DNA from: a virus
Length of the DNA: 64,000 nucleotides
Virus record (IMG/VR): IMGVR_UViG_3300030381_000254
Coordinates: 69,982 to 133,981 of that record
Strand: one strand, 5' to 3'
This document shows, piece after piece, positions 8,091-62,225 of the stretch (positions within the stretch are counted from its first letter, which is position 1; every line of letters starts with the position of its first letter). The translations under genes and the position numbers were made by a program. The notes under the pieces are model-generated. The model was not told the DNA's origin and did no database searches. It saw nothing but the letters and a program-made list of their open reading frames with translations.

Positions 8091-8116
8091 ATTATATTAT
8101 TATTTAAATAAGTTCA

Positions 8117-8560
8117 TTAAGATTTAATTTTCATATAAAATACTCTATATTTAGCATTTCCACATCTATATGCTTCAACACCACCAACTACAATAGATAC
8201 TCCATATTTAGGACCGCCTGTAATAAGTTGTGCGTTTCCAGTAGGCTTATAGCAAACGCAATTAGACCACATTCCAGCATTAGTATCGTAATATACAATA
8301 GAGATTATCATATTTTCATATCCTTCTTCGGGCTCAGGTAAATTTATACTACTTATTACTCCATCACTGTCAGAAGTCCCTTCAATATATTCTATTTTCT
8401 GCGAATCTATATTGTTAGATGAATTATAATACTGTCCATGTGTATATATCTGATTAGTATCTTTAATAAAACATACCGATGTTTGGGATATTAGTCCGGC
8501 ATCTAAATCTGATTTAAAAGTATTATACGTATTATAATGAACTAATATATTTTCAATCAT
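8117..8560 (-). CDS. Hypothetical protein in tail fibre module, 147 aa
   Basis: ORF with fibre-module context only. Confidence 0.4.
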   Translation of the reverse strand: MIENILVHYNTYNTFKSDLDAGLISQTSVCFIKDTNQIYTHGQYYNSSNNIDSQKIEYIEGTSDSDGVISSINLPEPEEGYENMIISIVYYDTNAGMWSNCVCYKPTGNAQLITGGPKYGVSIVVGGVEAYRCGNAKYRVFYMKIKS

Positions 8561-8565
8561 TTTTA

Positions 8566-15500: not shown

Positions 15501-17675
15501 ATTTCCTTCTACTAGTTCAGGAGTATTTGTGGAAGCGTTCCAAGTACCCATAAACTTAACATTTCCTAATACAGAATCAGGAAGTTGTGAATCTGGTACT
15601 TTTCCATTATTATCAAGGGTAGCAACACCATTAGCAACTCCCATCTCAGAGCGCTTAACTTGAGCATCGTCCGTAACATTTCCAAGGCCAATGTCAGTTT
15701 TATTTAAGACAGGATTTTCAGATATCTTATAACCATTAACAGTATAATTATCTATTACTTCTTTAGTATCTTCTACGATTTCATTAATCTTATCTACTAT
15801 AGAAACGCCTTCTCCTATACCTTCGGAAAGAGTATCTAATTTCTTCTTATCTTCCTTAGACATAGTACCGTTAGCCTCTTGTGTAGCGGTAGGTAAATCT
15901 ACAGTTGCTAATTCAGTAAAATCTTTAGAAGTTAGATCATATTTCCAAGAACTTACGTCAGTAAATACTTCTCCATAGAAAGTATAAGTTCTCCACTTTC
16001 CATCCTCAGTTATTAATTTAATCTTAACTCCTGGAACTTTGTACTTACTATCAATTGTACCACTTAGTCTAGATATTGCGGATTGTAAATTCCATTGATC
16101 TTTATTATCTCCTTGTCCTTCTCCTGGAAAGAGATCAACTATATTAAATAATACTTCAGTATGTGAAATTAATTCATCTAAAGCTTCTTGAGTAGCAGTA
16201 GATATAGGTTTATCCATATCAGAAGTATTATCTACGTTTCCAAGACCAACATCTTCTTTATTTAAGACAGGATTTTCAGATATCTTATAACCATTAACAG
16301 TATAATTATCTATTACTTCTTTAGTATCTTCTACGATTTCATTAATCTTATCTACTATAGAAACACCTTCCTCTATGCCTTCAGAAAGAGTATCGAATTT
16401 CTTCTTATCTTCCTTAGACATAGTACCATTAGCTTCTTGTGTAGCTGTAGGTAAATTTGTTGTAGCTAATTCAATAAAATCTTTAGAAGTTAGATCATAG
16501 TTCCATTTAGATTCATCTAATATTTCGGAAGATTCTCCATAGAAAGTATAAGTTCTCCACTTATCTTCATTAGATAAAAATTTTATTTTAATACCTGCTA
16601 ATCTTTCTTCATCTGATAATAGTGAATCTAATTTAGATATGGCTCTAGTTAAAGTCCATTGATTCTTATTATCTCCCATTCCTTCATTAGGAAAAAGAGT
16701 ATTAATATTATAGAGATATTCTGTATGAGATTGCATTTCATCTAGATCAGACTTATACTCTTCTTTTACTTTATTATCTCCTGCATTAATGGCTTCTTGA
16801 ACCCCGCTTAATTTTAGCCCGTTTTCAGATAAACTTAAAAAATCTTCACTACTTTCGTCTCTAAGTATTCCAATAGTAGGATCATTTTTTGTTCCTTCTA
16901 TAATAATACCCTTTCCTTCTGTAGCGGTGATGCTATGAACTGTATTTTCATTTAATGAATCTATCTGATCTTTTAACTCTTTTCCTTGAGATGCTCCTAA
17001 TACTTGTTCAGATTCACCTCCTTCTAAAGAATTAATTATATCAGTTTTCTTTACATATAATTTTTCAGCATCTTCCTTCTTAAGATACGGCTCTAATTCG
17101 ATACCTAAATCATATTCTCCTAATTTCTCCCAAGCTCTAGATTCAAATCCAGCCTCATCATAGACAGTAGTAAGAATATATTCTATATATTTTTGATTCT
17201 CTCCTTCATTTTCTGTTTTTCTTAAGATATATATCTTATTAAACTTTGCTTCTTTTAAAGGAGGAAGTTCATCAACAAATATAAAAATTTCAGTATCCAA
17301 CGTACAAGAAATGATATTATCTTCTGAAATATTAATTCCTGTACCAGCTGTTAACTTATCTTGTTTTTTCTTTAATTCTTCTTGTAATTGATCTTCGGTA
17401 ACATATTCACCTAAAGAGGATTTCCAACCCTCTTCTGAATGACGATTATCCCAACTAATTAATTTATAATTAGATGCTTCACTAACTACATACCATTCTT
17501 GACCAATTGCATCATCTCCAGTATTATCTCCACTATCAGACAATATACAATCTGGTATTTTATACAAAGCTTCTAGAGATGATACAGTTTTGTGTCCTGA
17601 GATTTCTATAGCTCTCGCAATCCCATAACTTTTAGGATTATTAGACACTAATATATCTGCAAATTTTAATGCCAT
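9549..17675 (-). CDS. Giant tail fibre protein, 2708 aa, highly repetitive
   Basis: Its N-terminus is shared with fibre 5379..8090. There are more than 20 tandem copies of a ~35-aa unit NPHxVTKEQVGLGNVDNTSDxDKPVSxATQ. There are three ~185-aa repeats (…LTSKDFTELATTNLPTATQEANGTMSKEDKKKLDTLSEGI…) with near-identical DNA, and repeated …IYRWDGTDLVEIGNPIHLGE… blocks. It shares the C-terminal module with its neighbours. Confidence 0.7.
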   Translation of the reverse strand: MALKFADILVSNNPKSYGIARAIEISGHKTVSSLEALYKIPDCILSDSGDNTGDDAIGQEWYVVSEASNYKLISWDNRHSEEGWKSSLGEYVTEDQLQEELKKKQDKLTAGTGINISEDNIISCTLDTEIFIFVDELPPLKEAKFNKIYILRKTENEGENQKYIEYILTTVYDEAGFESRAWEKLGEYDLGIELEPYLKKEDAEKLYVKKTDIINSLEGGESEQVLGASQGKELKDQIDSLNENTVHSITATEGKGIIIEGTKNDPTIGILRDESSEDFLSLSENGLKLSGVQEAINAGDNKVKEEYKSDLDEMQSHTEYLYNINTLFPNEGMGDNKNQWTLTRAISKLDSLLSDEERLAGIKIKFLSNEDKWRTYTFYGESSEILDESKWNYDLTSKDFIELATTNLPTATQEANGTMSKEDKKKFDTLSEGIEEGVSIVDKINEIVEDTKEVIDNYTVNGYKISENPVLNKEDVGLGNVDNTSDMDKPISTATQEALDELISHTEVLFNIVDLFPGEGQGDNKDQWNLQSAISRLSGTIDSKYKVPGVKIKLITEDGKWRTYTFYGEVFTDVSSWKYDLTSKDFTELATVDLPTATQEANGTMSKEDKKKLDTLSEGIGEGVSIVDKINEIVEDTKEVIDNYTVNGYKISENPVLNKTDIGLGNVTDDAQVKRSEMGVANGVATLDNNGKVPDSQLPDSVLGNVKFMGTWNASTNTPELVEGNEEDNGHYYIVDVPGSQFGFDFDAGDWVINSNGSWSKVDNVDAVKSVNGKDGIVELVIEDIPNLRDELDSKASQVDLEAHTSNTENPHNVTKEQVGLGNVDNTSDMDKPISTATLDALKKLQEHSDIVYNVTSLFPGEGQGDNKDQWTIQLAISKLDSYADPKYRVPGVKCKFLDTTGVWRTYTYYGEIFADSNSWSYDLTSKDFTELATTNLPTATQEANGTMSKEDKKKLDTLSEGIDENTSIKDIVDEAVNVAKEELQGNIDTVDSKVEAHIADKSNPHQVTKEQVGLGNVTNDAQVKRAEMGIAEGVATLDESGKVPSSQLPDSVLGNVRYSGTWDASKNIPELTDNSPENSGKYYVVSIAGSQFGINFEPGDWVINNGGNWAKVDNVDAVKSVNGKSGEVVIEIADISGLTDELNSKAAQSDLDSVKELANKLNDSLAQPDGIATLDSNGKLVESQIPSKAINVLEGKYINETTFNDRSDSPYTPALGIIYVDITDGSNNNIYRWNGTAFVKLCQTGDIEQDILDHIDNKSNPHEVTKEQIGLGNVTNDAQVKRTEMGVAEGVATLDINGKIPTWQLPGQVDEVFGIDHFVDSKDQIPTSRLDTGTTYYAKLEKKIYTAISDTSLDEGKTPEKGVIYSDRDTNIIYRWDGTDLVEIGNPIHLGEIAGTAYPGDKGKETTDKVNSHLEDFENPHQVTKAQVGLGDVDNTSDVNKPVSKAQQAALDAVKDELKQNIDSNKETTDNYTINGYKISENPVLDKEDIGLSEVDNTSDLNKPISTATQEALDVLTSGLKAINDSLAQPNGIATLDSNGKLVQAQIPKEAINVLEGKYINETTFNDKQGHPYEPITGVIYVDITSGLGNKMYRWDGSIFAELNQLNDVNSKIDEHISDKNNPHGVTKEQVGLGNVTNDAQVKRSEMGALNGVATLDDNGKIPDSQLPGKVVQVFGIDHFVDSKDQIPTSRLVVGTTYYVKEDKKIYTAISDTTVDEGKTPEKGTIYSNRDTNYIYRWDGTDLVEIGNPIHLGETEGTAYEGNKGKATTDKLNEHVANTENPHNVTKAQVGLANVDNTADMDKPISTATQEALDKITSDVESHTTNKSNPHEVTKAQVGLGNVDNTADLDKPVSNATKELINSTKDSLTQTITLHTENKNNPHGVTKEQVGLANVDNTADLNKPVSIAQQAAIDKVKSEILPEVDKVNSSLTAHVSSENNPHKVTKAQIGLGNVDDTSDENKPVSLAQEARISKVESDLTAKITIHTSDKNNPHEVTKAQIGLGDVDNTRDIDKPISTATQRALDELDSRLSESVTTHIADKSNPHQVTKEQVGLSNVTNDAQVKRSEMGVASGVATLDESGKVPSSQLPSFVDDIVEADSLDEFPEVGEIGKIYLAKDTNIIYRWSGSKYVEISSSLALGETSSTAYPGDKGKATTDKLNEHVANTENPHQVTKEQVGLANVDNTSDMDKPVSTATQAAIDKVKEDLEQSIGEGSETLTSHIANKSNPHEVTKEQVGLGNVDNTADKDKPVSTAQSEAISAAKAEVTKSINDHIADVRNPHGVTKEQVGLGNVDNTSDLNKPVSNATREALSALSDSVTQIVNAHAQNYSNPHQVTKAQVGLDRVDNTNDLEKPVSNATQELVNKIKLDLTTTITSQGEILNAHVADKNNPHSVTAFQIGLGNVNNTADMDKPVSTATQIALDKKADLVDGKVPTTQLPDQVIHSLHYRGFWDADINSPKLENDLGNNAQEGDYYIVRGQGVRFGYEFLPYDIIFNAYGTWYRLSGSNQRDEVTRFDITSFTADKYECEIGENATIKFNWEYNGLGEGENPESQNINGNVAEPASRTLSITDVLADTTFVLSAGYRGISASAELQVKFYSKVYVGTSTNNTVSDSELQAMTSFFDNEKNSLPLTKLDCTGGKYIYVAIPKVNATNYTIYANNILVTDVVETSRNVVNASGGKAEYTIYRLSNKYNGILNIEVKLNK
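11700..13700 (-). repeat. Tandem array of ~105-nt (35-aa) NPHxVTKEQVGLGNVDNTSD fibre repeats
   Basis: A recurrent DNA motif recurs, ...cctaaaccaacttg(t/a)(t/g)ctttcgttac(t/c)ccatgaggatt.... More than 20 peptide repeats are visible in the translation. Confidence 0.65.
14640..16750 (-). repeat. Intragenic ~185-codon repeats in the giant fibre gene, three copies
   Basis: The DNA is near-identical at about 16255..16515 and 15700..15960, for example ...tttcagatatcttataaccattaacagtataattatctattacttctttagtatcttctacgatttcattaatcttatctactatagaaac.... A third copy lies around 14790..14960. Confidence 0.7.
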
Positions 17676-17686
17676 TGTAATTATAT

Positions 17687-19180
17687 TTATTTAAATTCTA
17701 TAGTAACATTAGTAAATACTCCTGGATGATTTGTAATATATACTTTATAATCAATTCCAATTCCAGCTGCATTGATAACTTCTATTGAGTTTTCAAATTT
17801 ATGAAAAGCTCCTAGAATTGGAAAACCATCCTGATAAATACCTTTCAAGTCACCTAAAGAATCTGGAAAGGCTATTAAATAATACTCATCTTCATCTGTA
17901 GTTACACCTTCTACTTTAGTTTCTAAATTTCCTTCTAAAATTAGTTTAGTATCAGATAAAGATCTAATATCATATTCAACTATATCTTTTTCAGATCCTT
18001 TATGTAAAGTTCCGTAATATATTCTATCAGCAAAAGATACTTTTCTTTTATCTTCAGTTACATCTATTTTCCCATTACTATAAATTACATCTTCTCCTCT
18101 AACCATAAATCCAGTTTTAGGAGCCTCAAGCTTAATTAAAAACTCTGTATCTTCAGTAACATATGTAGATGTAAACATAGAAGACTCTACCCCACTAGGA
18201 GTTAATTCTTTCCACGTTGAATCTTCCGATATGCTAATTGGATCTTTTTTTCCTTCCTCAGATTTCCAAGAATACACTCCTTTAAATACTACTTTATAAC
18301 CCTTTTCTATAATTGGATTATCTCTATCAGGACTTGGATATACTGAAATAGGTTTAAATGAATTATTATAAAATTCCCAAGAACAACTAATTTTAGGAAC
18401 TACTAATTCTTTATTTTCATCCAATAAACTATCTAAATTATCTACTATCTCTAGTAATGATTTAGAAGTACTTTCTACTGCTGATGTAAATACTAAAGTG
18501 TCATTATTAAGAGTAATTACTTCTTTATAATATTTTCCTTTAAATATCCACTCAATAGTAAGAATATGTTTACATTGATATTCACACTCTATAGTACATG
18601 CAGAAGCCGTTACAGGAACTATTCCTCTTCCTTCGTTTACCTTCATTGCTACTATAGACGCAGATAATTTCAATGATTCACAAAGTTTCTTAAATTTATC
18701 TGCTCCTCCAAAAACTTCAGAAATCTCTTCACTAGTACTTTCGCTAGTTAATTCTGAGGTCTTTAATGGAAGTAATAAAACTTTACTATTTATTAAATTT
18801 AATACTTCATTTTCAGACAATGCAAAAAAAGTACCAGCAGTCCAAATCTGTCTAGTCTCTTTTATATACACTATAGATGATTCAGGAATTACTCCTGCAG
18901 ATAGATCTAATTCAAAGCTTTCAATTAAATCATAAACTCTAAAGAAATTACCCCAAAATAAATCTACTCTAGGATCTCTTAAATCTATAATATTTCCAGC
19001 GGAATTTTTTGCCCAGATACTTTCATGACCTTCAAATAATCCTAAACCAAGTTCTCCAACCTCTAATTGTTCTGGTTTAGGCATTTTTCCTTCTTCTATA
19101 GAATTCTTTAATATAATAATAGAAGGAAGAGGAAGCTGGGTATTATCCACTACATTTTTTAATTCTTCACTATTATTCAT
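17687..19180 (-). CDS. Tail fibre or baseplate-associated protein with shared C-terminal module, 497 aa
   Basis: The C-terminus (YYLIAFPDSLG...AGIGIDYKVYIT...FTNVTIEFK) is homologous to the C-termini of the two upstream genes. Confidence 0.5.
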   Translation of the reverse strand: MNNSEELKNVVDNTQLPLPSIIILKNSIEEGKMPKPEQLEVGELGLGLFEGHESIWAKNSAGNIIDLRDPRVDLFWGNFFRVYDLIESFELDLSAGVIPESSIVYIKETRQIWTAGTFFALSENEVLNLINSKVLLLPLKTSELTSESTSEEISEVFGGADKFKKLCESLKLSASIVAMKVNEGRGIVPVTASACTIECEYQCKHILTIEWIFKGKYYKEVITLNNDTLVFTSAVESTSKSLLEIVDNLDSLLDENKELVVPKISCSWEFYNNSFKPISVYPSPDRDNPIIEKGYKVVFKGVYSWKSEEGKKDPISISEDSTWKELTPSGVESSMFTSTYVTEDTEFLIKLEAPKTGFMVRGEDVIYSNGKIDVTEDKRKVSFADRIYYGTLHKGSEKDIVEYDIRSLSDTKLILEGNLETKVEGVTTDEDEYYLIAFPDSLGDLKGIYQDGFPILGAFHKFENSIEVINAAGIGIDYKVYITNHPGVFTNVTIEFK

Positions 19181-19776
19181 TTCCTAAGACATTTAGTACA
19201 TTCAGGAATATCATTATTTACTCTCCATCCTGTATTCGTTACATCATTATAATTATAATAAGAATAACTTTCATCTTCGGGATAAACCCCGGAAGTCCAA
19301 TTTTCAAAGTCTGATACACTTTGTCCAGGAGAACATTCATTTCCACACGGACATTCATTTATCGGATTTTGATATAAAAGGTTTTGATATTGAAACTTTA
19401 TTCTAACTAATAAAGCTGTAATTACATTACTCCAGGAATAGATAAATCTATCTTGATTATATGGAATTTCTTCATTATCTACATAAATCTCTCCATTATC
19501 TATTCCTAACTCTCTTCTAAGATCATCAACATCCCCGTATATAATCTTTGTTTCTCCATGTTCCTTAATATCAAATATCTCTTGAATACTTACTTCAATA
19601 TCTGAACCTTCTGGGAGTAAAGTTAATCTTTTACTTATATAGTCTAAAGTATAAGTAATGTACGGTGCTAATTCACATCTTAAAGAATAATCTATTTGTG
19701 ATATTCCTAAGACAGATTTAATATTTTGAAGAGCTACTTTGTAAATGATATATCCATTTTTATCATTCCACTTCAT
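19177..19776 (-). CDS. Hypothetical structural protein with Cys-rich C-terminus, 199 aa
   Basis: CPCGNECSPGQ...CTKCLRK is a possible zinc ribbon. The gene sits in the structural block. Confidence 0.35.
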   Translation of the reverse strand: MKWNDKNGYIIYKVALQNIKSVLGISQIDYSLRCELAPYITYTLDYISKRLTLLPEGSDIEVSIQEIFDIKEHGETKIIYGDVDDLRRELGIDNGEIYVDNEEIPYNQDRFIYSWSNVITALLVRIKFQYQNLLYQNPINECPCGNECSPGQSVSDFENWTSGVYPEDESYSYYNYNDVTNTGWRVNNDIPECTKCLRK

Positions 19777-19777
19777 A

Positions 19778-20161
19778 TTAATCTTTCACTTCAAAAATAG
19801 TAACACCATTAATCATTATTTTGACTAATGATTTTGTTTCTGGGTTTAAGAAAAAGTATAATCTATCCTTTTCAAATTGAAGAATACTGCTAGCATCAGT
19901 TACCACATCAATTCCTTTACAACTTTCTGATTGCATTATTTTATCAGAAACTGAAATTTGAATACCCTTTTTTGTATTTCCATAACAATCAGAGTTACAA
20001 GTAGCATCTGCAATTCTAATACCATCTCCTTCTAATATTTCAGAAGGACTTATTGCATTTGTATATAAATCTGAAATAGCGTTTTCAATCTTATTAAGAT
20101 TAGCTGCATTAACTGGAGTTTTATTATCAATCCAGGTTGTTTTTATGTAATTATTTTTCAT
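19778..20161 (-). CDS. Hypothetical protein, 127 aa
   Basis: ORF in structural block with tight gene packing. Confidence 0.35.
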   Translation of the reverse strand: MKNNYIKTTWIDNKTPVNAANLNKIENAISDLYTNAISPSEILEGDGIRIADATCNSDCYGNTKKGIQISVSDKIMQSESCKGIDVVTDASSILQFEKDRLYFFLNPETKSLVKIMINGVTIFEVKD

Positions 20162-20182
20162 AATTTTATATTATAATAATAT

Positions 20183-20545
20183 TTACCACTCTCCTCCATC
20201 AATTATATCAAATGGAGCAGACCAATTATCTTCATTTATCCAATTTTCCTCGTCAGTATTAGCACCCTTATAAATAAACTCTAGAAAATTTCCTTCAGAT
20301 CCTAAAAATCTTATTTTCATACCTAATCTTCTTCTAGACTCAGGAACTAATAATACAGCGGTACTTAAATTAAACTTTCTTGAGAAATCATTAGCTTCGG
20401 AATTAATATTACAGAAATCCTTTATTATCTCATTTATATAATTTACACCAGAATTAGCTGTATTATTTACAGAGTTGAAATCCTGATGTGATAAAGAATC
20501 TCCTAATTTCTTCATTCCTACACCAGATGTATTTAATAAATCCAT
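20183..20545 (-). CDS. Hypothetical protein, 120 aa
   Basis: ORF in structural block. Confidence 0.35.
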   Translation of the reverse strand: MDLLNTSGVGMKKLGDSLSHQDFNSVNNTANSGVNYINEIIKDFCNINSEANDFSRKFNLSTAVLLVPESRRRLGMKIRFLGSEGNFLEFIYKGANTDEENWINEDNWSAPFDIIDGGEW

Positions 20546-53710: not shown

Positions 53711-54843
53711 ATGTCAGTATCTCTTGAGTTACTAACCGATGAAGCAATCATCGATTATACTAAAAGTGATGGAAAGGATAGAGTTCTCTATAATCATAGA
53801 GACTTAGACTTAAAGTATAACGGTATACAACCTATTTCTGGTGGAGTATATGATGTTGAAATATTCGGATCTCCTATGGAAGATAGATGTATCTGTGGAA
53901 AAATTCGACAACCTTCTATGGAACCTTGTCCTAATTGTGGAGCTAGAGTATTTTCTAGAGAAGAGGGACTTAGAAGATTTGCCAGAATAGAATTACCTTT
54001 CTATTATTTGAATGATTTGCGTTTTGATATCTTTAAAGAATTATTTGAAGATATATTTAAAGAAAGCAAAATAGTTTTAGATTTCTTCGGGGATGATCTT
54101 AGAAGAAATGGTTATAGTGCGAGAGGAGCAAAGAAATTAGGTATTAAAGTATTCGATACCTGCCAGTTTGATTATAATCCTACTACAAAAGAGCTTAAGA
54201 TTTCTGAATTTATAGATGATGAATCTAAATGTTCTTATGAAGGACTTATGAAGATTATAGAAGAACATTTTCCTGGTCGTCTCGTAGAATATAAAAAGTT
54301 GATTAATAGGTATTACTTAGTACAGCCAGCTATGATGAGACCTTTTACCCTTGGTGTAAAAAACGGAAAAAAGATAATGGGATCTCATAAACTTAGTATC
54401 TGGTATTCTATTATAATTAGACTTTGTTGTGTAGAAGATACTAAATCTAATGACTTAAATTATGCGGAAGTAACTTCTAAATTTAAGACTCCAGGTGAGA
54501 AAGTTAGATATACAGCACTTCTAAGAGCACTTCTTAATACAGGTAAGAAAGAAGCTACGGCACTTCTTAATACGTCTAAGGAAAATTTAGCGCGTGATCT
54601 TTATTCAGTAAGAACAAAGAGTTCTGCTAGATGTCCAATCATTCCTAGTACTACACTAGCTATTGATGAAATTTCTATACCTATTCATATTGCATATGAA
54701 ATGTGTAGAGAAGGATTCTTAGACTATTTAATGAAAGAATTAAATTTTACTAAAGAAGAGGCTCTTAAAGCAACAAAAGAAGAGTATAATAATCCGGAAA
54801 CTTTAAAGATGTTTAAAGAATTTGCGGAAAAACAAATCGTACT
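53711..54843 (+). CDS. rpoC: RNA polymerase beta' subunit, exon 1 (N-terminal Zn-finger region to ...EKQIVL)
   Basis: CICGKIR...CPNCGARV matches the beta' N-terminal Cys4 zinc finger. The exon ends with U at 54843, which pairs with the intron IGS GGTACG at 54858..54863. Confidence 0.7.
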
Positions 54844-55728
54844 AGATTTTTCACTGGTACGTTAGGTGAAAATCCTGAAACAAATGTAAATTACGTTTGT
54901 TTAATTTTGTGTATTGCTGGAAATTAATTATAATTAATAATCAGCAGTTGAATCTATTATAAAAGCAGAATAATAAATATAAAAAGAAGAGCTTATGAAG
55001 ATATTTAGGATTAATTTATTTTCTACACTATCTTCTACAACTCCATGGAATCGATCTGAACATATGAAACAACTTCATGCTGAAGGAAGATATAAAGGAA
55101 CTTCTAAGATAGGGTTGTGGAATGTTAGCGAAGAAAAAAGACAAAGAATGGCTAATATACGATTAGCAAATTCTTTAAATAAAAATAGTAAAGGATATGG
55201 TAGTGAGTGGCATATGAGACTAGCTAACAGAACTTTACTGCATAATAAATTTCAAGGAGAACAGGGTTATTTATACTTTGTTAGATTTCCTATGAGTATC
55301 AAGGTTGGTTTTTCAAAAAATTGGGAAAGAAGACTGAATTATCAATTACCTAACTTGAATCATATCTTAGGTGGTAAAGTTATAGCAATCATATCAGGAC
55401 CAACAAATGATTTAGCCGATCTTGAATTTGATACATTTGTTAAATTTCAAAATTATACAAAATTATCAGAGGATGGAACTAGATATACTGAATTCTTAGA
55501 CTTATCAGTAAGAAAAGAAGTTTATGAGTTCTTAAAATCTAGAGTATCTGATAATAATGAGTTAGAATTTTTAATACAGAATCCGCTTTTATAATAAATT
55601 CAATTCAACGACTATGGACAAAACTAAGATTAGTGTTGTGATAACCTAGTTTTTGATAATATAGTCTTGCAGGATAGAGATATCCTGGTAAAGAATGATT
55701 ATAATGACGTAATATAATCATTCTACAG
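54844..55728 (+). mobile_element. Group I self-splicing intron 1 in rpoC (885 nt) carrying a homing-endonuclease ORF
   Basis: P element ATTGCTGGAAA is at 54913, Q element AATCAGCAG at 54938, R element TCAACGACTATGG at 55605 and S element GATAATATAGTCTT at 55655. R and S form the P7 pairing GACTAT/ATAGTC. A P9 hairpin lies at 55669..55687. There is a U at -1 and an omega G at 55728. Joining the exons gives QIVL|VNRQPSLHEY..., which aligns to E. coli HPVLLNRAPTLH. Confidence 0.75.
54995..55594 (+). CDS. Intron-encoded putative homing endonuclease (GIY-YIG-like motif)
   Basis: A free-standing ORF lies inside intron 1 between the Q and R elements. GYLYFVRF...IKVGFSKNWERRLNYQ resembles GIY-(10)-YIG-...R. 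Confidence 0.5.
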   Translation: MKIFRINLFSTLSSTTPWNRSEHMKQLHAEGRYKGTSKIGLWNVSEEKRQRMANIRLANSLNKNSKGYGSEWHMRLANRTLLHNKFQGEQGYLYFVRFPMSIKVGFSKNWERRLNYQLPNLNHILGGKVIAIISGPTNDLADLEFDTFVKFQNYTKLSEDGTRYTEFLDLSVRKEVYEFLKSRVSDNNELEFLIQNPLL

Positions 55729-56709
55729 AGTAAACCGTCAACCTTCATTACATGAGTATAGTACTTTTGCAATGAAGTTAAGAATTCATGAGGATTATAC
55801 AATACATTTTCCTATTCAAGTATGTGAACCATTAAATGCTGACTTTGATGGTGATACTGTATCAATACAGTTAGTTCCGCCTGAAGCAGCTGAAGAGACT
55901 TATGAAAGAATGAGTCCTAGATATGTTACAATTTATAAAAAGAATAATGAACCTATTTATAAATTTAATCACGAAACACTTAATGGTTTAGCAGTTGCGA
56001 CTGAATATTCATACTCTGATTTGGAAGAATTGAAAGATCCTAAATATTTTTATACTGATTATGTTCAGTTATTAAAGGATGTAGAAATAGAAAAGAAAAT
56101 CAAAGTTGGAACACCGATTGTATTTACAGGAAAAATAGGGAATGTAGATTATCAATCTAAAGTTACAAGTTATGGTAGACTTCGTATTTCTAAAATACTT
56201 GATGCTGATATAGATAAAATTGGTATATTTAGTAATGAGTTTGAACGTATTAGTGCTAAGAGTGCAGCTAAGTTAAGTCTTTATTTAAATCAATTCGAAG
56301 ATGGAGTTGAAAAGAGAAAAGCACTTACTAAATTTGCTCTTCGCGTAGTTAGCATGGCTGGAGTAGTAACGTTTGATTATAAAACACTGTATGCTGATTG
56401 TGATACGGAGACTTATAAGAGAATTTGTAACGTAGCAGATTCTAAAGAACTTACAGATAAACAGAAACTTTTGATAATGACTCAAGAATTTAAGAAATAT
56501 GAGGACGAAGTTTCTGCAAGTTTTAGTTCTGATTTGAAAAATGAACTTGATAGAGCAGCTCGTGTTAAATTATCATCTATTGTAGCAATGTCAATGCCAC
56601 AGTTTATAACTTCAGGAGTTGATGAAAAACCTGTAATTACTCGTGGAACATTGTTATCTGGTTACACAGAGAAAGATTATCAATTACATGCAATAGAAAA
56701 TCGAAGCTT
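55729..56709 (+). CDS. rpoC: RNA polymerase beta' subunit, exon 2 (catalytic NADFDGD region); 3' end approximate
   Basis: VNRQPSLHEYSTFAMKLRIHEDYTIHFPIQVCEPLNADFDGD aligns to E. coli NRAPTLHRLGIQAFEP...NADFDGD. A bridge-helix-like SGY motif lies near the end. The exon end was chosen at the U at 56709, 70 nt upstream of the P element, the same spacing as in intron 1. Confidence 0.6.
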
Positions 56710-57201
56710 ACAATCTATTAAAGTTAGTGGTGTTAAAATATTAAGCTCGAATATGGTAGCCCACTTAAAATAACAATTAAATGCTGGAAAGAATATGTAA
56801 ATATAAAATCAGCAACTTATATAATCTTTAAATCTATTTTATGGCGAGATTGGAAAAAGTTTTAGAAATTTTAAAAGTAATTGGAGGAATTGCTAAAACT
56901 ATGCTTTGTGGAATGGAAGAGTATAGAAGAATTCAAGAAACAAGAGCATATAGAGAAAATCAAAAGAAAAAAGTAAAATATTTACCAAAGCCAAAGAAAA
57001 GATATAAAAGAAATAAATAAGATCAACGACTATGTATTGTTAGATTAAACAAAGTTTAATCATGATATAGTCTAATCCTATGTGATAAACATAGGCAGGA
57101 TGGGATTTTAGGAAGCGCTTTTAATTTATATTATAGCCTAATATCCTTGAATGACCTTCGAGCGGATATTTAACTCGTCAAATATCTTTCCTTTTAAATA
57201 G
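56710..57201 (+). mobile_element. Group I intron 2 in rpoC (~490 nt), boundaries approximate
   Basis: P element AAATGCTGGAAAG is at 56779, Q element AAATCAGCAAC at 56806, R element ATCAACGACTATG at 57022 and S element CATGATATAGTCT at 57061. A P9 hairpin lies at 57076..57095. G at 57201 is the only omega-G candidate consistent with phase, given the in-frame stop at 57170. The intron contains a 59-aa Lys-rich ORF at 56841..57020. No canonical U.G P1 pairing was found, so the 5' splice site could instead be at 56718 or 56724. Confidence 0.55.
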
Positions 57202-58357
57202 CTACGTATATCATGAAGGAGAAGATACTGAAAATGATGGTCTTTTGATACCTAGATACAAAGCTTTAGGACGTACTGCACCTAATGGAAAAGTATATCC
57301 AGAAAAGCCATTAGTAAACGGTTCAGAAGATGATTTGGTACCAGTTAGATCAATCATTACAAAAAGAAAAGGTGACACTCATACGATTACTCCTGACCTT
57401 ATAGGAACTAAATTCAAATTTACTGATGGAGCAGCTATTGGTCTTTCTTTTGCAACATCCTTAACTGAGGGAACAACCCAAAGTGCATTAGGATTAAAAC
57501 ATGGAGGTCATGAACGTGTTTTACAAATGGACGGAATACTTAAAGCTCCTAAACAATGCGAATTTAGAGAAGAAGGAAGATGGATTTATTTAAAAGTTAG
57601 AGGTGGAGAATTAAAATATCCAAGACCTGATAACTGGGTAAGTGTAGGAAAAGAAAAGTTTGAAAAGGGAGATACTATAGGAACAGCATATAATACTACA
57701 TCTCCTATTTATAAACTTAATGCACTTATTAAATTGATGAGAGCAAAGGGATCTGATGGTACTAGATACTTTGAAAAAGATAATGTTATAGTTTCTGACT
57801 CATACTGTTATAAATCGGGGACGATTCATTACAAGGAGACTAAGGATGGTGATATAGAAGTATGGATTGGAGATATTCAATATGATTATAATCCAATGTG
57901 TATGTATTATTATCCTGATGGTACTGAAATAAAGAAATATCAAAGATTCTGCAGTGGAGTGGTTAATATGAATCACGTGATTCCAGGTATGAATAATAAT
58001 TTGAATGATATTTATTTAATTTTCAGAAATCAATTCTATACATTAACCGACGGAAAATTTGCATCTACTGGATTAACTGATTTACATTCAACTCAAGAAG
58101 AATTAGTAGAGTTATTGTTTACTGGTTTAACTGATATTATTGTAGATACTGATACTCAGAAAATTGAAGATATCCAATATTTGGGAACTCAATCTGGTGT
58201 ATTAAATAAGAAGTCATTCTATACAGTATTATCTTATGGTTATTCTAGTAGAGTAGTTAGTAGAGCCCTCAAGGGGGATTTAAATCTTAGTGGTGATGTT
58301 ATGACAGAAACTATATTAGGATTATTGTTAAATAATAAACTTGATGATAAAAAATAA
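57202..58357 (+). CDS. rpoC: RNA polymerase beta' subunit, exon 3 (trigger-loop region to C-terminus); 5' end approximate
   Basis: ...YVYHEGEDTENDG resembles E. coli VVTEDDCGTHEG. GAAIGLSFATSLTEGTTQSALGLKHGG aligns to [28 protein letters not shown]. The ORF caller placed the start at the TTG at 57245. Confidence 0.6.
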
Positions 58358-58686: not shown

Positions 58687-59037
58687 ATGAACGATAATTA
58701 TTATAAAATTACTTTATCATATGAAATTCCATATAACGTCATAGATTCTCAAGATCCTAATGTAATACAGGCTAGAAATATACTTTACGAAAAATTAAAA
58801 GATAGTATTTATCCTAAATATGAGAAATTTTCAGTTAAACTTGTATTATATCAGTTAAAAGATACATTTAATTATTTAGTTACATATGAGGCTTTCTTTA
58901 GATCTTTAGATGGTAAACCTATGGAAGAATATGTAGAGGCTCGTGATCTAAAAGATAGTATTAAGAAAGAATTAGAAGATTTTTTTAATTCAGTAGATTG
59001 CGATTATAAGCAGTTAAATATTAAAACATTATTATAA
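58687..59037 (+). CDS. Hypothetical protein, 116 aa
   Basis: ORF whose stop overlaps the rpoB start. Confidence 0.35.
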   Translation: MNDNYYKITLSYEIPYNVIDSQDPNVIQARNILYEKLKDSIYPKYEKFSVKLVLYQLKDTFNYLVTYEAFFRSLDGKPMEEYVEARDLKDSIKKELEDFFNSVDCDYKQLNIKTLL

Positions 59038-62000
59038 TGAGTAATTTTAATCAATATTTTAGAAACACTGGAGTAAAAATAATGGTAGATAAGTTCTTCA
59101 GACAGAGTAATATAGATAAATATAATCCAGATAATAAAATTACTTCTTTGGATTATGAAATTATCGAAGAACCACCTCAGCCAGCTTCTTACTATATAGA
59201 AAATGGTTTGACTGCTACTCATAAAGTAAGAATTAATTATACCATTAATGAAGACGATGAACTAAAATATGCAGAATTTGAAGTACCTAAAGAAATAGAT
59301 GGAGCTTTTATTATAGAAGGAGCTTATCGTATTTCAACTAACAAAATGAATGCAGATTTTGACTGTCGTATTCGTATGTCAGGTACTGGAGAATATACAG
59401 TAAAATTCGATTATGATAGAACATATGATATAAATAAAAAGATTTTAAAGATAACTAGAATAAATCCAGATCTAGGAATTTCAGAAAAGGCTATGGATAT
59501 TCACTTTGATGATATCGATAAGACCTTAGAAACTGATAAAAAAGATATTCTTAAACTTACTGAAAGACAGTCTAAGAAATTGATGATTAAGTTGGACCTA
59601 GACTATAAACCGGAGTATATAACACAAAAGCTTATTCAAGATTGTATGGCTTTTGGAGACGATAGACTTAAGGATTTAATCATTGATAAAACTATAGAGT
59701 CTGTACCTAATGGATTTATGAAATATCTATTCAGAGATAATAATCGAAGAAACTATTATTCTGCTTGTAGAAGAATAAATTCATACTTTACTAAATATGG
59801 AAGAATACAGGATCAAGTTACTGCTATTACTACTTTATGTTTCAGATATTTTAAAGGAGCAAAAGATATCTCTACAGCAGAAACAGGAATTCAGGTTCCT
59901 CCTGGTGTAAACTCTATTAATCTAGAAGCAATCTCTAATAAAATTGTTATTCCAGATAGCATAGCATATAATACCACATTTAGTGATTTGATAGATATTG
60001 CTGATACACCTATTAATAATAATACTAATCTCCAGAATTCATTAACGGTTTCATGTCATATTACTGATGATGATATACTTTTTGATGTTTATGATAAAAA
60101 TTTTATGAGGATAACTATCCCTTACATCGATTATCTTAACCATAAAGTATGTGCATCTGAATTTGTAGATTACGAAACTAATACTATAAAACCTAATAAA
60201 GATGGACAAGTAGAAGTTAAGTATAGAATGAAACGTAGAATGGTTCCTGTAGAGGAGATAGAATTAATAGACCTACATCCTGACTATAGATTATCCGGAA
60301 CTACTAGAAGAATACCATTTGTAAATTATACTGATAGTGTTCGTATTAGTATGGGTACTTCTATGTTAAAACAAAGTATTCCATTAGTTAATGCAGAACG
60401 ACCATTAGTTGATACTGGTAGATCGGAAGAGTTAAAAGATAATATATTGAATGAGAAATTTCAATATCCAGAAGGAAAAGTAAAAGATATTACTGACGAT
60501 AAAGTAGTAATAGAGTTACCTGATGGAACTGAAACTGAAATATTAAGACGTACGGCTATTCAGAGTATAAATGATGTCGCTGTATTTACAGAGCCTAAAG
60601 TAAAGATTGGACAAAAAGTAAAACAAGGAGATATTATTACTGGAGCTGTAGGACATACACTAGATACTTATAAATCTGGAGTTAATGCATTAGTTCTTTT
60701 CCATGCATATCATGGATTAGTTAATGAGGATGCTTTGGTTATTTCAGAGTCTTTTGCAAATCGAATAGCATCTTATAGCATTATAGATTTAATGATTAAT
60801 GTTAAAAATATTAGTGCTATTAAGTGGATTGCTCCTATTGGAACTAAAGTTAAATCTAAAGATCCAGTAGTTACATTATATAAAGCAGTTCGTCTAGATG
60901 CTATAAATGCTGCTTTACAGGAAAAATTAGGAGGATTATTTGGAGAAGGAAGAGATTTAACCGAATATACTATTGAGGATCATCTAAAAGTACCTAATAA
61001 TATAGATGAAGCTTGGGTATCTGACGTTATGGTTCAAGAAATGAAGAATCCTAAAATTCCAAAATCTGTAAAAGCTCCTGATTACTCATTTGCGCATACT
61101 TCTCAAGATGTTATTAATGAGTATGAGAAAAATAAAGATAGAAAAGTAATTTATGATAAATTTCCAGAATATGTAGCAGCTGATACTTTAGATCCGATTA
61201 ATATGGATCCAGATGCATATAAAATTGTTTATACAGTTAGAATAAGACTGATTAAGAGAACAATAGGTATGATTGGATCTAAGATTACATCTAGATATGG
61301 AGGTAAAGGAGTAGTTAGCTGTGTAAAACCGGACGAACAGATGCCTATTATGGTAGATAAATTTGGAAATAAGACGAGAGTTGAAGTAGTAATGAATCCT
61401 TATTCAACTATTAATCGAAAAATTCCTAGTGTTCTTATGGAATTTGCTCTTGGAAATATTGCACATAGATTACATGATCTTGTAGATGAGTATAAGAAAA
61501 CAAAAACTGGACAGAAGAAAATTAAACCATTGTTAGAAAAATATTATCCAGGAAGATTTGACTCTATGACTATTGAAGAAATAATAGATCGTCATAATTC
61601 AAGTCCTATTGAAGAAATGTATTATTTTAATGTTGGTTGTTTTTCTACTAAATTCACACCAGAGTTAGTTAATGAATGGTCAGATGAATTAGGAGTAGAA
61701 TCTCAGAGTAAGATTCTAATGCCTGAAAATGAACTTACTGATCTCGATGAATTAAAGGAAAATTTAGATTCAGAAGAATACGAACAGGTGGTGAAAAATA
61801 TAACAGGTAAATTTATTGAAGTTGATAAGCCTCTAATGACTGGATATATGTGTTTAGAGGAGTTATATCATATACCTAGTTACTCTAATAAAGTTACCAC
61901 TAGTTTGTATGGAGTGGATGTAAATCCTAGAAGAGACGAACCTATATTAGGACGGGGAAGATATCGTTTAACTGGACAAAAGATTGATGAAATGAGTTTG

Positions 62001-62225
62001 TCAGTTCTTTTATCTAGAAATGCTAAGAAATTCATAGAAAGTACTCGTAAGGATACAGCTACTGAAGATAATCAGTTATTCTTGAATAATCTTCTTGGAT
62101 TAGGATTAACTGTGGTTGATGATAAAGGATTTAATCAAGGAGGTAGTTCTTTGAAGAAAGAATTAAATGATCTTAAAGTTAAATTCCGTCGTAAAAATAA
62201 TTTATTAAATTTGGGAGATAAATAA
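59037..62225 (+). CDS. rpoB: RNA polymerase beta subunit (compact, 1062 aa)
   Basis: MGTSMLKQSIPLVNAERPLV aligns to the beta motif NMQRQAVPL...PLV. GRGRYRLTGQKIDEMSLSVLLS aligns to GGQRFGEMEVWAL. Confidence 0.7.
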   Translation: MSNFNQYFRNTGVKIMVDKFFRQSNIDKYNPDNKITSLDYEIIEEPPQPASYYIENGLTATHKVRINYTINEDDELKYAEFEVPKEIDGAFIIEGAYRISTNKMNADFDCRIRMSGTGEYTVKFDYDRTYDINKKILKITRINPDLGISEKAMDIHFDDIDKTLETDKKDILKLTERQSKKLMIKLDLDYKPEYITQKLIQDCMAFGDDRLKDLIIDKTIESVPNGFMKYLFRDNNRRNYYSACRRINSYFTKYGRIQDQVTAITTLCFRYFKGAKDISTAETGIQVPPGVNSINLEAISNKIVIPDSIAYNTTFSDLIDIADTPINNNTNLQNSLTVSCHITDDDILFDVYDKNFMRITIPYIDYLNHKVCASEFVDYETNTIKPNKDGQVEVKYRMKRRMVPVEEIELIDLHPDYRLSGTTRRIPFVNYTDSVRISMGTSMLKQSIPLVNAERPLVDTGRSEELKDNILNEKFQYPEGKVKDITDDKVVIELPDGTETEILRRTAIQSINDVAVFTEPKVKIGQKVKQGDIITGAVGHTLDTYKSGVNALVLFHAYHGLVNEDALVISESFANRIASYSIIDLMINVKNISAIKWIAPIGTKVKSKDPVVTLYKAVRLDAINAALQEKLGGLFGEGRDLTEYTIEDHLKVPNNIDEAWVSDVMVQEMKNPKIPKSVKAPDYSFAHTSQDVINEYEKNKDRKVIYDKFPEYVAADTLDPINMDPDAYKIVYTVRIRLIKRTIGMIGSKITSRYGGKGVVSCVKPDEQMPIMVDKFGNKTRVEVVMNPYSTINRKIPSVLMEFALGNIAHRLHDLVDEYKKTKTGQKKIKPLLEKYYPGRFDSMTIEEIIDRHNSSPIEEMYYFNVGCFSTKFTPELVNEWSDELGVESQSKILMPENELTDLDELKENLDSEEYEQVVKNITGKFIEVDKPLMTGYMCLEELYHIPSYSNKVTTSLYGVDVNPRRDEPILGRGRYRLTGQKIDEMSLSVLLSRNAKKFIESTRKDTATEDNQLFLNNLLGLGLTVVDDKGFNQGGSSLKKELNDLKVKFRRKNNLLNLGDK

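What the first reader, a model, noticed from the sequence alone, without database searches (positions are those of the whole stretch)
56710..57201. Second group I intron in rpoC with a small Lys-rich ORF; splice sites unresolved
The same P element (AAATGCTGGAAAG), Q (AAATCAGCAAC), R (ATCAACGACTATG), S (CATGATATAGTCT) and P9 hairpin recur between the catalytic exon and the trigger-loop exon. The 12-mer TCAACGACTATG is shared with intron 1. The phase-compatible omega-G is unique at 57201 and gives ...IENRSF|YVYHEGED..., but no canonical U.G P1 was found for the 5' site. Candidates are 56709, 56718 and 56724. A 59-aa basic ORF (MARLEKVLEILKVIGG...KRYKRNK, 56841..57020) lies inside and may be a degenerate HEG remnant or a maturase-like peptide.
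Basis: partly seen in the sequence, partly recalled or inferred. Interest (0 to 1): 0.7.

Follow-up and report, generated by a model that had tools for sequence, protein, structure and literature searches.

The report
Group I intron splitting RNA polymerase gene
A 420-base self-splicing-type (group I) intron interrupts the phage's RNA polymerase beta-prime gene inside the codons for the bridge helix; it is a real intron of a kind already reported in these gut jumbo phages, but its borders differ from those first proposed, and it carries a small, conserved gene of unknown function.

Summary
Both proposed borders are wrong. The intron is 56734..57153 (420 nt), not 56710..57201.

- **5' splice site:** it follows U56733, which forms the U.G pair with G56759 in a P1 helix (exon AGUGGnGU / guide GCCCACU). 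One P1 pair covaries in two relatives.
- **3' splice site:** omega-G is G57153, and a 3-bp P10 is possible.
- **Spliced product:** ligation gives ...HAIENRSLQSIKVSGV|PSSGYLTRQISFLLNSYVYHEGED, the bridge helix. Two intron-less metagenome alleles read exactly KVSGVPSSGYLTRQ across this point.
- **Structure:** P3, P4, P6, P7 and P8 are 97% paired across 13 variants (28-46% in shifted controls), with compensatory changes in P1, P3, P6 and P8. A closer set adds them in P9 and P9.1.
- **ORF:** it sits in the P6 loop and is under purifying selection (dN/dS 0.08-0.26, in-frame indels). It is predicted to be one long helix plus a basic tail, and it resembles no nuclease or maturase.
- **Context:** relatives are 200-400 kb gut phage contigs that match the published "Jug" phages, already reported to carry about 18 group I introns per genome.

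This is a new member of a known kind. The orphan intron protein is the only mildly novel part. No RNA evidence for this locus was available.

The parts
56726..56733 (+). Last 8 nt of exon 2 (AGUGGUGU, codons Ser-Gly-Va(l)). This is the 5' strand of P1, and U56733 is the last exon nucleotide.
   Evidence: It pairs with 56759-56765 in 13/13 variants. U56728-A56763 becomes C-G in L063 and in L067. N56731, the third position of the Gly codon, is bulged and varies between U and A.
56734..57153 (+). Group I intron, 420 nt.
   Evidence: The borders are fixed by the intron-less alleles L069 and L070, the U.G pair, omega-G and the reading frame. The structure is supported.
56738..56754 (+). P1 extension hairpin (P1a: 56738-42 / 56750-54, loop AAGCUCG).
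   Evidence: Relatives form different but complementary stems here, for example AUAAA/UUUAU and AUAU/AUAU. This is the weakest helix, at 66% of cells paired.
56755..56765 (+). Internal guide sequence. GGU (56755-57) can pair with the first 3 nt of exon 3 to form P10. GCCCACU (56759-65) pairs with exon 2 to form P1.
   Evidence: GGUAGCCCACU is invariant in the close set A1 and in 11 of the 13 A3 variants. L063 differs by the compensated A-to-G change; L066 has AGGUAG. P10 cells are 100% paired (GGU/ACC or GGU/GCC).
56771..56777 (+). P3 5' strand (UAACAAU). The TAA at 56771-56773 is also the in-frame stop for ribosomes reading on from exon 2.
   Evidence: It pairs with 57036-57042. C-G changes to A-U or U-A, and A-U to U-A, in L058, L059, L062 and L064. 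About a dozen different P3 sequences occur across the intron family.
56782..56814 (+). P4 (56782-87 / 56809-14) enclosing P5 (56793-96 / 56801-04) with a GUAA loop. These are elements P and Q.
   Evidence: P4 is 100% paired but invariant. An unconstrained MFE fold recovers P4 and P5.
56816..57021 (+). P6 (CUUAU 56816-20 / AUAAG 57017-21), closing the 196-nt loop that holds the ORF.
   Evidence: U-A becomes C-G in 4 of 13 variants. About 25 different complementary P6 helices occur across the family.
56841..57020 (+). 59-aa ORF (MARLEKVLEILKVIGGIAKTMLCGMEEYRRIQETRAYRENQKKKVKYLPKPKKRYKRNK) in the P6 loop. Its stop codon overlaps the P6 3' strand.
   Evidence: dN/dS is 0.08-0.26 against relatives, with saturated dS and in-frame indels. 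There are 19 homologous clusters; every one whose context was examined (9 clusters, plus P0022) sits in this intron. AlphaFold2 predicts a helix at residues 2-43 and a disordered tail, pLDDT 82.
57026..57073 (+). P7 (A57026 and 57028-32 paired with 57068-73, C57027 bulged), enclosing J7/3 (UGU), the P3 3' strand (57036-42), P8 (57043-50 / 57054-61) and J8/7. These are elements R and S.
   Evidence: P7 is 100% paired but invariant. P8 is 97-99% paired with compensatory changes. P3 and P7 cross, forming the pseudoknot typical of group I introns.
57077..57147 (+). Peripheral 3' domain: P9 (57077-82 / 57090-95) and P9.1 (57102-12 / 57137-47).
   Evidence: There are 2 compensatory pairs in P9 and 5 in P9.1, with 99-100% of cells paired.
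57153..57153 (+). Omega-G, the last intron nucleotide.
   Evidence: G immediately precedes (A/G)CC in every variant, although the upstream sequence differs (GAAUG, UUAUUG, AAAAUG, CUCUAUG).
57154..57201 (+). First 48 nt of exon 3: A + CCT TCG AGC GGA TAT TTA ACT CGT CAA ..., giving (V)PSSGYLTRQISFLLNS.
   Evidence: The protein is conserved while the Ser codons differ (TCG AGC versus AGT TCA). It aligns without gaps to the archaeal Rpo1N bridge helix. It is contiguous with KVSGV in L069 and L070.
54844..55728 (+). Intron 1 of the same family (885 nt), with a 199-aa endonuclease-like ORF (54995-55594) in its P6 loop. It is listed because the finding refers to it.
   Evidence: It has the same P/Q/R/S set. 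P1 is CGUACU (54838-43) / GGUACG (54856-61), omega-G is 55728, and intron-less L070 reads EKQVVLINRQPSLH. The ORF matches phrog_681 'endonuclease' at 1.8e-7.

Best explanation
Positions 56734-57153 are a group I intron inserted in the Val codon (GT|N) in the middle of the bridge-helix coding sequence of the phage's multisubunit RNA polymerase beta-prime gene.

The inferred mechanism is standard group I chemistry.
1. The exon end AGUGGnGU pairs with the internal guide GCCCACU to form P1, with U56733.G56759 marking the 5' splice site.
2. A free guanosine bound in P7 attacks after U56733.
3. The guide segment GGU then pairs with ACC at the start of exon 3 (P10). G57153 (omega-G) enters the G-site, and the exons are ligated.
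4. Ligation restores ...KVSGV-PSSGYLTRQ... and a 1113-aa beta-prime.

The intron has no P2 and no P7.1/P7.2. Its P6 loop carries a 59-aa gene for a helical protein with a basic tail. That protein is kept by purifying selection but is not a recognisable homing endonuclease. The intron is present at this site in every intron-bearing relative examined (more than 60 loci) and is absent from two more distant relatives.

Shown here: the sequence elements, the helices with covariation, the exact insertion site, and the conservation of the ORF.
Inferred: actual self-splicing, and any role for the ORF.
For: - **Motifs:** the P/Q/R/S set occurs only at the two introns in 64 kb on both strands. P, R and S are nearly identical to those of the self-splicing T4 nrdB intron, which also has its ORF between Q and R.
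- **Structure, close variants:** 94% of cells are paired against 37-46% in shifted controls, with 12 pairs changed on both sides.
- **Structure, diverse variants:** the core is 97% paired against 28-46%, with compensatory changes in P1, P3, P6 and P8. L067 repeats the P1 covariation.
- **Intron family:** each of the 54 distinct intron cores compared (52 mini-intron cores from relatives plus the window's two) has its own complementary P3 and P6. Own versus cross pairing averages 5.6 vs 4.2 bp and 6.2 vs 3.8 bp.
- **Thermodynamic fold:** the MFE fold recovers P4, P5, P6, P7, P8 and P9, with z = -3.2.
- **Junction:** intron-less L069 and L070 read KVSGVPSSGYLTRQ. L070 is a single uninterrupted HSP over residues 349-1110 of the spliced protein. 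The junction aligns without gaps to the archaeal bridge helix. The spliced ORF has no internal stop.
- **ORF:**
- **Context:** Jug phages carry 2513 predicted group I introns, and metatranscriptome reads support splicing for 37 of 76 (PMC12880540).
Against: - Rfam's Intron_gpI model gives no hit in the window at gathering threshold. It gives none at E<=10 over 54600-57500, which covers both introns, and none at E<=1 on four related loci with ORF-less mini-introns.
- The control weakens this negative only in part. T4 td and nrdB also fall below gathering (40.3 and 35.7 bits against 50), but they are visible at E~1e-7.
- P4 and P7 never vary in the set, so they carry no covariation evidence.
- P1 needs a one-nucleotide bulge.
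- No RNA data for this locus were available, so splicing itself is inferred.
- One relative (L007) has an internal TAA in the ORF, and three database variants have altered C-termini. The ORF may therefore be dispensable in some lineages.
Confidence: 0.92

Rival explanations
1. One reading: a 492-nt intron at 56710-57201, spliced to give ...IENRSF|YVYHEGED...
For: U56709 and G57201 are phase-compatible, and the product has no stop codon.
Against: - It would delete LQSIKVSGVPSSGYLTRQISFLLNS, the bridge helix. That sequence is conserved at protein level with synonymous codon changes.
- The same sequence is contiguous in intron-less alleles and aligns without gaps to archaeal Rpo1N.
- No P1 or U.G pair exists for 56709.
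Confidence: 0.01
2. There is no splicing. The beta-prime is made as separate polypeptides from split genes, as in some jumbo phages. The intervening segment is an intergenic spacer with a small gene.
For: Gene callers annotate separate ORFs (55772-56773, 56841-57020, 57245-58357). Split beta/beta-prime subunits are known in phiKZ- and AR9-like phages (my own knowledge).
Against: - The break falls in the middle of the bridge helix.
- The first start codon downstream (TTG at 57245) would lose PSSGYLTRQISFLLNSYVYHEGEDTENDGL, which is nevertheless conserved as coding sequence.
- The spacer has a conserved, covarying group I fold whose guide sequence pairs with the exon.
- Intron-less relatives have one continuous ORF.
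Confidence: 0.03
3. The intron is real, but the 59-aa ORF is a functionless relic, such as the remains of a homing endonuclease gene. Its conservation would reflect recent common ancestry or RNA-level constraint.
For: - It is far smaller than any known homing endonuclease.
- L007 has an internal stop, and P0004, P0006 and P0007 have truncated or frameshifted C-termini.
- dN/dS is noisy (0.25-1.3) among very close relatives.
- Sibling introns carry full-length endonuclease genes in the same loop.
Against: - Between diverged lineages dS is saturated (0.9-2.3) while dN is 0.2, giving dN/dS 0.08-0.26. The neighbouring exon gives 0.08-0.10.
- Indels are multiples of three.
- The distant L067 copy (P0022) still keeps the frame and the GG-I...EYRKI motif.
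- There is no similarity to the endonucleases of sibling introns.
- RNA-level constraint would not spare synonymous sites.
Confidence: 0.2

Closest known systems
Group I introns of Jug (jumbo gut) phages of Bacteroides/Phocaeicola (Sci Adv 2026, PMC12880540; preprint PMC12363816)
   Same: - The relatives of this window are IMG/VR gut contigs of about 200-400 kb with many interrupted genes. Several fall in the 360-402 kb genome range reported for Jug phages.
- The paper reports 2513 group I introns in 136 genomes, about 18.5 per genome and about 206 nt on average. Metatranscriptome reads support splicing for 37 of 76.
- Its group Beta has about 27% GC and fewer introns. This window has 28.5% GC and two introns of this motif family.
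- Genes here lack Shine-Dalgarno motifs. From my own knowledge, that is typical of Bacteroidota hosts.
   Different: - The accessible text does not describe this intron, its bridge-helix site, its splice junction or the small conserved ORF. No supplementary tables are held.
[quoted passage not shown] Here P1, U.G, omega-G and P10 indicate ordinary splicing introns.
- I did not compare the window with a named Jug genome, so its membership in that clade is inferred.
Phage T4 nrdB intron (subgroup IA2, ORF I-TevIII in the P6 loop)
   Same: - The core elements are nearly identical: AATTGCTGGAAAG, TTCAACGACTAG and GATATAGTCT.
- The ORF lies between Q and R.
- The 5' layout looks the same, with only the P1 hairpin before P3. 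The absence of a P2 in nrdB is my recollection, and I did not fold its sequence.
- It sits in an essential phage gene.
   Different: - T4 nrdB has about 50 nt (P7.1/P7.2) between P7 and P3'. Here J7/3 is only 3 nt, so those helices are absent.
- Its ORF is an H-N-H endonuclease (defective in T4), whereas this one has no nuclease motif.
- Rfam scores it at 35.7 bits, while this intron gives no hit at all.
PhiPA3 gp210 intron in a jumbo-phage RNA polymerase beta subunit gene (Science 2024, PMC11620839)
   Same: It is a putative group I intron inserted at a highly conserved catalytic-core site of a phage multisubunit RNA polymerase gene.
   Different: - It lies in the beta subunit, not beta-prime, in a Pseudomonas nucleus-forming phage.
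- It carries an active HNH homing endonuclease used in inter-phage competition.
- This intron has no endonuclease and is present in every intron-bearing relative examined.

Membership tests
Group I intron | Conserved core sequence elements P, Q, R and S in the canonical order. | tested here: met
   Elements start at 56779, 56805, 57022 and 57061. They occur only at the two introns in the window, with 0 expected by chance. P, R and S are nearly identical to those of the T4 nrdB intron.
Group I intron | P4-P6 and P3-P7-P8-P9 helices, with the P3/P7 pseudoknot, supported by comparative analysis. | tested here: met
   94% and 97% of cells are paired, against 28-46% in shifted controls. Compensatory changes occur in P3, P6, P8, P9 and P9.1. 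Family-wide covariation of P3 and P6 is shown. P4 and P7 are invariant and therefore uninformative.
Group I intron | 5' splice site defined by a U.G wobble pair in P1, formed between the exon and an internal guide sequence. | tested here: met
   U56733.G56759 is present in 13/13 variants. An exon-guide pair changes from U-A to C-G in L063 and L067. One bulged nucleotide is required.
Group I intron | Terminal guanosine (omega-G) at the 3' splice site, and P10 pairing with the 3' exon. | tested here: met
   G precedes (A/G)CC in all variants. The 3-bp P10 (GGU/ACC or GCC) is 100% paired. It is short, so this is weak evidence on its own.
Group I intron | Removal restores an uninterrupted, conserved coding sequence, and empty-site alleles exist. 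| tested here: met
   Intron-less L069 and L070 read KVSGVPSSGYLTRQ. The junction aligns without gaps to the archaeal bridge helix.
Group I intron | Match to the curated covariance model Rfam RF00028 (Intron_gpI). | tested here: not met
   There is no hit in the window at gathering, none at E<=10 over 54600-57500, and none at E<=1 on four related loci. In the control, T4 td and nrdB also miss gathering (40.3 and 35.7 bits against 50) but are detected at E~1e-7. The Jug-phage study used subtype-specific models that I could not run.
Group I intron | Guanosine-dependent self-splicing by two transesterifications. | not testable with these tools
   This needs in vitro transcription and splicing, or RNA-seq. 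Only general metatranscriptome support for Jug-phage introns exists.
Subgroup IA2 (T4-type phage introns) | Extra helices P7.1 and P7.2 between P7 and P3'. | tested here: not met
   Only 3 nt (UGU, 57033-35) separate P7 from P3'. T4 nrdB has about 50 nt there. The subgroup is therefore left unassigned.
Intron-encoded homing endonuclease or LAGLIDADG maturase (for the 59-aa ORF) | A recognisable nuclease or maturase domain (LAGLIDADG, GIY-YIG, HNH, His-Cys, PD-(D/E)XK, NUMOD). | tested here: not met
   - Pfam, PHROGs and PDB profile searches give nothing significant.
- hhalign probability is 0.2 against two sibling-intron endonuclease-like ORFs.
- A profile search of 1.84 billion representatives finds only the family itself, plus one 1991-aa protein I judged spurious without inspecting it.
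- The predicted fold is a single helix.

The most novel reading that the evidence does not exclude
The 59-aa helical protein with a basic tail, encoded in the P6 loop, may be a new kind of intron-encoded factor rather than a nuclease relic. It could be a small RNA-binding splicing cofactor or chaperone for this intron, which sits at a very sensitive site of an essential gene. Alternatively it could be an RNA polymerase accessory protein whose expression is tied to beta-prime transcription. Either role could explain why the intron and the ORF are kept together at this one site in every intron-bearing relative examined.
Probability: 0.25. Interest if true: 0.6.

Novelty: new member of a known kind. 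Interest (0 to 1): 0.35.

Why it matters
- **Annotation:** the corrected borders turn three apparent gene fragments (plus intron 1) into one 1113-aa beta-prime with an intact bridge helix. Automatic gene callers currently report fragments and lose the SGYLTRQ motif.
- **Biology:** it adds a precisely mapped case of a group I intron in the bridge-helix codons of a viral multisubunit RNA polymerase.
- **Hot spot:** in relatives the same ~60-nt stretch hosts up to three tandem introns separated by 14-15-nt micro-exons.
- **Open lead:** the intron protein is orphan but conserved. It is a testable lead on what, other than homing endonucleases, group I introns can carry.
- **Overall:** the existence of such introns in these phages is already published, so this is incremental.

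Tried and rejected
- **Rfam:** Intron_gpI gave no hit on the window (gathering, and E<=10 on 54600-57500) or on four related loci. The T4 control shows the model is weak for phage introns.
- **Phage collection searches:** megablast, blastn and a short tblastn query all returned nothing.
- **Alternative splice pairs:**
  - 56709/57202 deletes the bridge helix.
  - 56724/57154 gives KV|PSSGY, 3 residues short of the intron-less alleles and of the archaeal/yeast spacing.
  - 56731/57161 is also 3 residues short, and it needs U at 56731 where most relatives have A.
  - 56734/57155 needs an A as the last intron nucleotide.
- **Junction pattern in IMG/VR:** 0 hits. The metagenome scan then found two.
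- **Intron 1 P1:** my first guess was AAACAAAU/GUUUGUUU with the 5' splice site at 54837. I withdrew it after L070 and L067 showed the site is after T54843, with P1 CGUACU/GGUACG.
- **Minus-strand and isolated motif hits** (7262, 8281, 51034, 62532) lie inside ordinary ORFs and are chance matches.
- **Fold search of the ORF model:** not run, because a single helix gives meaningless matches.
- **Custom covariance model:** not built, because the MAFFT alignment of the family cores was not consistent in structural register. I used a direct own-versus-cross helix test instead.

Full report
**What is in the sequence.** The window is AT-rich (28.5% GC). It carries a very divergent multisubunit RNA polymerase beta-prime gene in three ORF pieces: 53711-54865, 55772-56773 (containing NADFDGD) and 57245-58357. 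The beta subunit follows at 59037-62225. The 12-mer TCAACGACTATG and the pattern TGCTGGAA-N(10-40)-AATCAGCA each occur exactly twice in the 64 kb, at the two proposed introns, with zero matches in 100 shuffles. Isolated matches to single elements elsewhere lie inside ordinary ORFs.

**The borders are wrong.** The reading frame of exon 3 is open upstream to 57155 and reads P S S G Y L T R Q I S F L L N S Y V Y H E G E D. SGYLTR(R/Q) is the hallmark of the bridge helix. In relatives the same peptide is encoded with different serine codons (TCG AGC versus AGT TCA), so it is coding sequence. On the 5' side the exon continues to ...SLQSIKVSGV.

**Relatives.** A scan of IMG/VR with the spliced protein returned 50 loci on phage contigs, most of them 200-400 kb. 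All of those covering the site carry a homologue of this intron at the same position. Protein look-ups added more distant copies (L058, L059, L061-L068). The literature identifies the likely clade as 'Jug' jumbo gut phages of Bacteroides/Phocaeicola. These are reported to hold 2513 group I introns in 136 genomes, with metatranscriptome support for 37 of 76 (PMC12880540). Group I introns in jumbo-phage RNA polymerase genes also have a precedent in phiPA3 (PMC11620839).

**Splice sites.** The exon end AGUGGnGU pairs with the invariant intron segment GCCCACU (56759-65). There are five pairs, then a bulged nucleotide (the third position of the Gly codon, U or A), then G-C, then U56733.G56759. In L063 and L067 the exon has AGC instead of AGT (a synonymous Ser change) and the guide has G instead of A. 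This is a compensatory change that links exon and intron. G57153 precedes (A/G)CC in every variant even where the preceding intron sequence differs. GGU (56755-57) can pair with ACC/GCC of exon 3 as P10. The pair U56733/A57154 keeps the frame and makes a Val codon: GTA here, GTG or GTA in relatives.

**Decisive test of the junction.** A degenerate pattern for the predicted ligated junction found two intron-less alleles in metagenomes.
- L069 reads ...HSIENRSLQSIKVSGVPSSGYLTRQLSF...
- L070 reads ...HSVENRALQAIKVSGVPSSGYLTRQISF....

L070 aligns to residues 349-1110 of my spliced beta-prime as one uninterrupted HSP at 66% identity, so it is empty at both intron sites. The junction peptide also aligns without a gap to the bridge helix of archaeal Rpo1N: HAIENRSLQSIKVSGVPSSGYLTRQ against [25 protein letters not shown]. 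The intron is therefore 56734-57153, 420 nt.

**Secondary structure.** I wrote a group I model consisting of P1, P1a, P3, P4, P5, P6, P7, P8, P9 and P9.1, with P3 and P7 crossing.
- On 13 close variants, 94% of cells pair against 37-46% when partners are slid. Twelve pairs change on both sides, in P1a, P5, P8, P9 and P9.1.
- On 13 diverse variants with the ORF loop excised, the core is 97% paired against 28-46%. Compensatory changes occur in P1, P3, P6 and P8. P4 and P7 never vary.
- Relatives carry dozens of further introns of the same family, 5-8 per beta-prime locus, many only about 170-190 nt. Each of the 54 distinct cores compared (52 mini-intron cores from relatives plus the window's two introns) has its own complementary P3 and P6. 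Own versus mismatched partners average 5.6 vs 4.2 bp and 6.2 vs 3.8 bp.
- An unconstrained MFE fold recovers P4, P5, P6, P7, P8 and P9, with z = -3.2.

**Comparison with known introns.** P, R and S are nearly identical to those of the T4 nrdB intron, whose ORF is also between Q and R. This intron has only 3 nt between P7 and P3', so it lacks the P7.1/P7.2 pair of subgroup IA. I leave the subgroup unassigned. Rfam's RF00028 model gives no hit on the window or on four related loci. As a control, the proven T4 td and nrdB introns also miss the gathering score (40.3 and 35.7 bits against 50) but are seen at E~1e-7. The Rfam negative is therefore a real but weak point against membership.

**The ORF.** ORF 56841-57020 lies in the P6 loop. 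P6 (CUUAU/AUAAG) closes the loop, and the ORF's stop codon overlaps the 3' strand.
- Against diverged relatives, dN/dS is 0.08-0.26 with saturated dS, similar to the neighbouring exon (0.08-0.10). Indels are in-frame.
- A search of 5.8 billion proteins found 19 clusters of 53-70 aa with no Pfam domain. Every one I checked lies in this intron at this site.
- A full profile search of 1.84 billion representatives found only the family itself, including a distant 69-aa member in L067. One further hit, a 1991-aa protein, I took to be spurious without inspecting it.
- AlphaFold2 predicts one helix (residues 2-43) and a disordered basic tail, with pLDDT 82. By my inspection of the sequence, the hydrophobic residues follow a roughly heptad spacing.
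- There is no similarity to PDB entries, Pfam families, or the endonuclease-like ORFs of sibling introns.
- One relative has an internal stop, and three database variants have altered C-termini.

I conclude that the ORF is a real, selected small gene of unknown function. A nucleic-acid-binding role is a guess based on its shape.

**Mechanism.** The mechanism is inferred from the established chemistry of the family. P1 presents U56733. Exogenous G bound at the G57028-C57072 pair of P7 cleaves the 5' site. P10 and omega-G57153 then align the 3' site for exon ligation. Ribosomes reading on from exon 2 would stop at the TAA at 56771-73. No RNA data for this locus were available.

**Verdict.** This is a genuine group I intron with corrected borders, in a phage clade already known to be rich in such introns. 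It is a new member of a known kind, with a modestly interesting orphan intron protein.

Noticed in passing
window 54838-55728: Intron 1 belongs to the same family. Comparison with intron-less L070 (EKQVVLINRQPSLH) and covariation in L067 place its 5' splice site after T54843, with P1 CGUACU/GGUACG, and omega-G at 55728. The intron is 885 nt and the product reads EKQIVLVNRQPSLH. Its P6 loop holds a 199-aa ORF (54995-55594) that matches phrog_681 'endonuclease' at 1.8e-7 but no Pfam family.
   Followed up: partly
L001 2051-4000 (also L002, L005, L014, L034): In relatives, the bridge-helix codons are a hot spot with four distinct insertion sites within about 60 nt: after HAI(at|), QSI(at|), SGV(gt|) and SGY(t|at). 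L001 has three tandem introns there, separated by micro-exons of 15 nt (3318-3332) and 14 nt (3800-3813). Each micro-exon must serve both as P10 partner for the upstream intron and as P1 partner for the downstream one.
   Followed up: partly
L001-L066, e.g. L002 4838-5012, L001 3814-4000: Relatives carry 5-8 introns per ~10-kb beta-prime locus, all sharing TGCTGGAA / ATCAGCA / CAACGACT / ATATAGTC. Many are ORF-less mini-introns of roughly 170-190 nt. My recollection is that the smallest well-known natural group I introns are about 200 nt, which I did not check. The published study called such hits 'group I-like ribozymes', but P1 with a U.G pair and a terminal G are visible by eye in the few I inspected (the L002 mini-intron and L001 introns X and Y).
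   Followed up: partly
L071 (T4) 12900-20200 versus window: Rfam RF00028 scores the experimentally proven T4 td and nrdB introns below its own gathering threshold (40.3 and 35.7 bits against 50). It does not see the introns of this phage clade at all, so gathering-threshold Rfam scans will miss phage group I introns.
   Followed up: yes
L007 (internal TAA in the small ORF); proteins P0004, P0006, P0007: One relative has a nonsense codon (CAA to TAA) in the middle of the small intron ORF. Three database variants have truncated or frameshifted basic tails, possibly from slippage in A-runs or from assembly errors. This hints that the ORF is dispensable in some lineages.
   Followed up: no
window: 30 nt upstream of starts at 51207, 52597, 53711, 54995, 56841, 58357, 58687, 59037: None of the eight genes inspected has a Shine-Dalgarno-like motif. 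Their upstream regions are simply A/U-rich. From my own knowledge, this fits a Bacteroidota host, as predicted for Jug phages.
   Followed up: no
window 57115-57118 (GCGC); GACGUC at the aligned position in relatives: The loop of P9.1 carries a short G+C palindrome at the same position in different lineages (AGCGCU here, GACGUC in most relatives), inside otherwise A/U-rich sequence. It could be a tertiary or kissing contact. I have no explanation for it.
   Followed up: no
window 5379-17675, minus strand: Two very large ORFs (903 and 2708 aa) with repeated ...NPH.VTK.QVGLGNVDNT.D..KP.S.A... modules look like tail-fibre or receptor-binding proteins. The AATGCTGGAA matches at 7262 and 8281 fall inside or beside them and are chance matches.
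   Followed up: no
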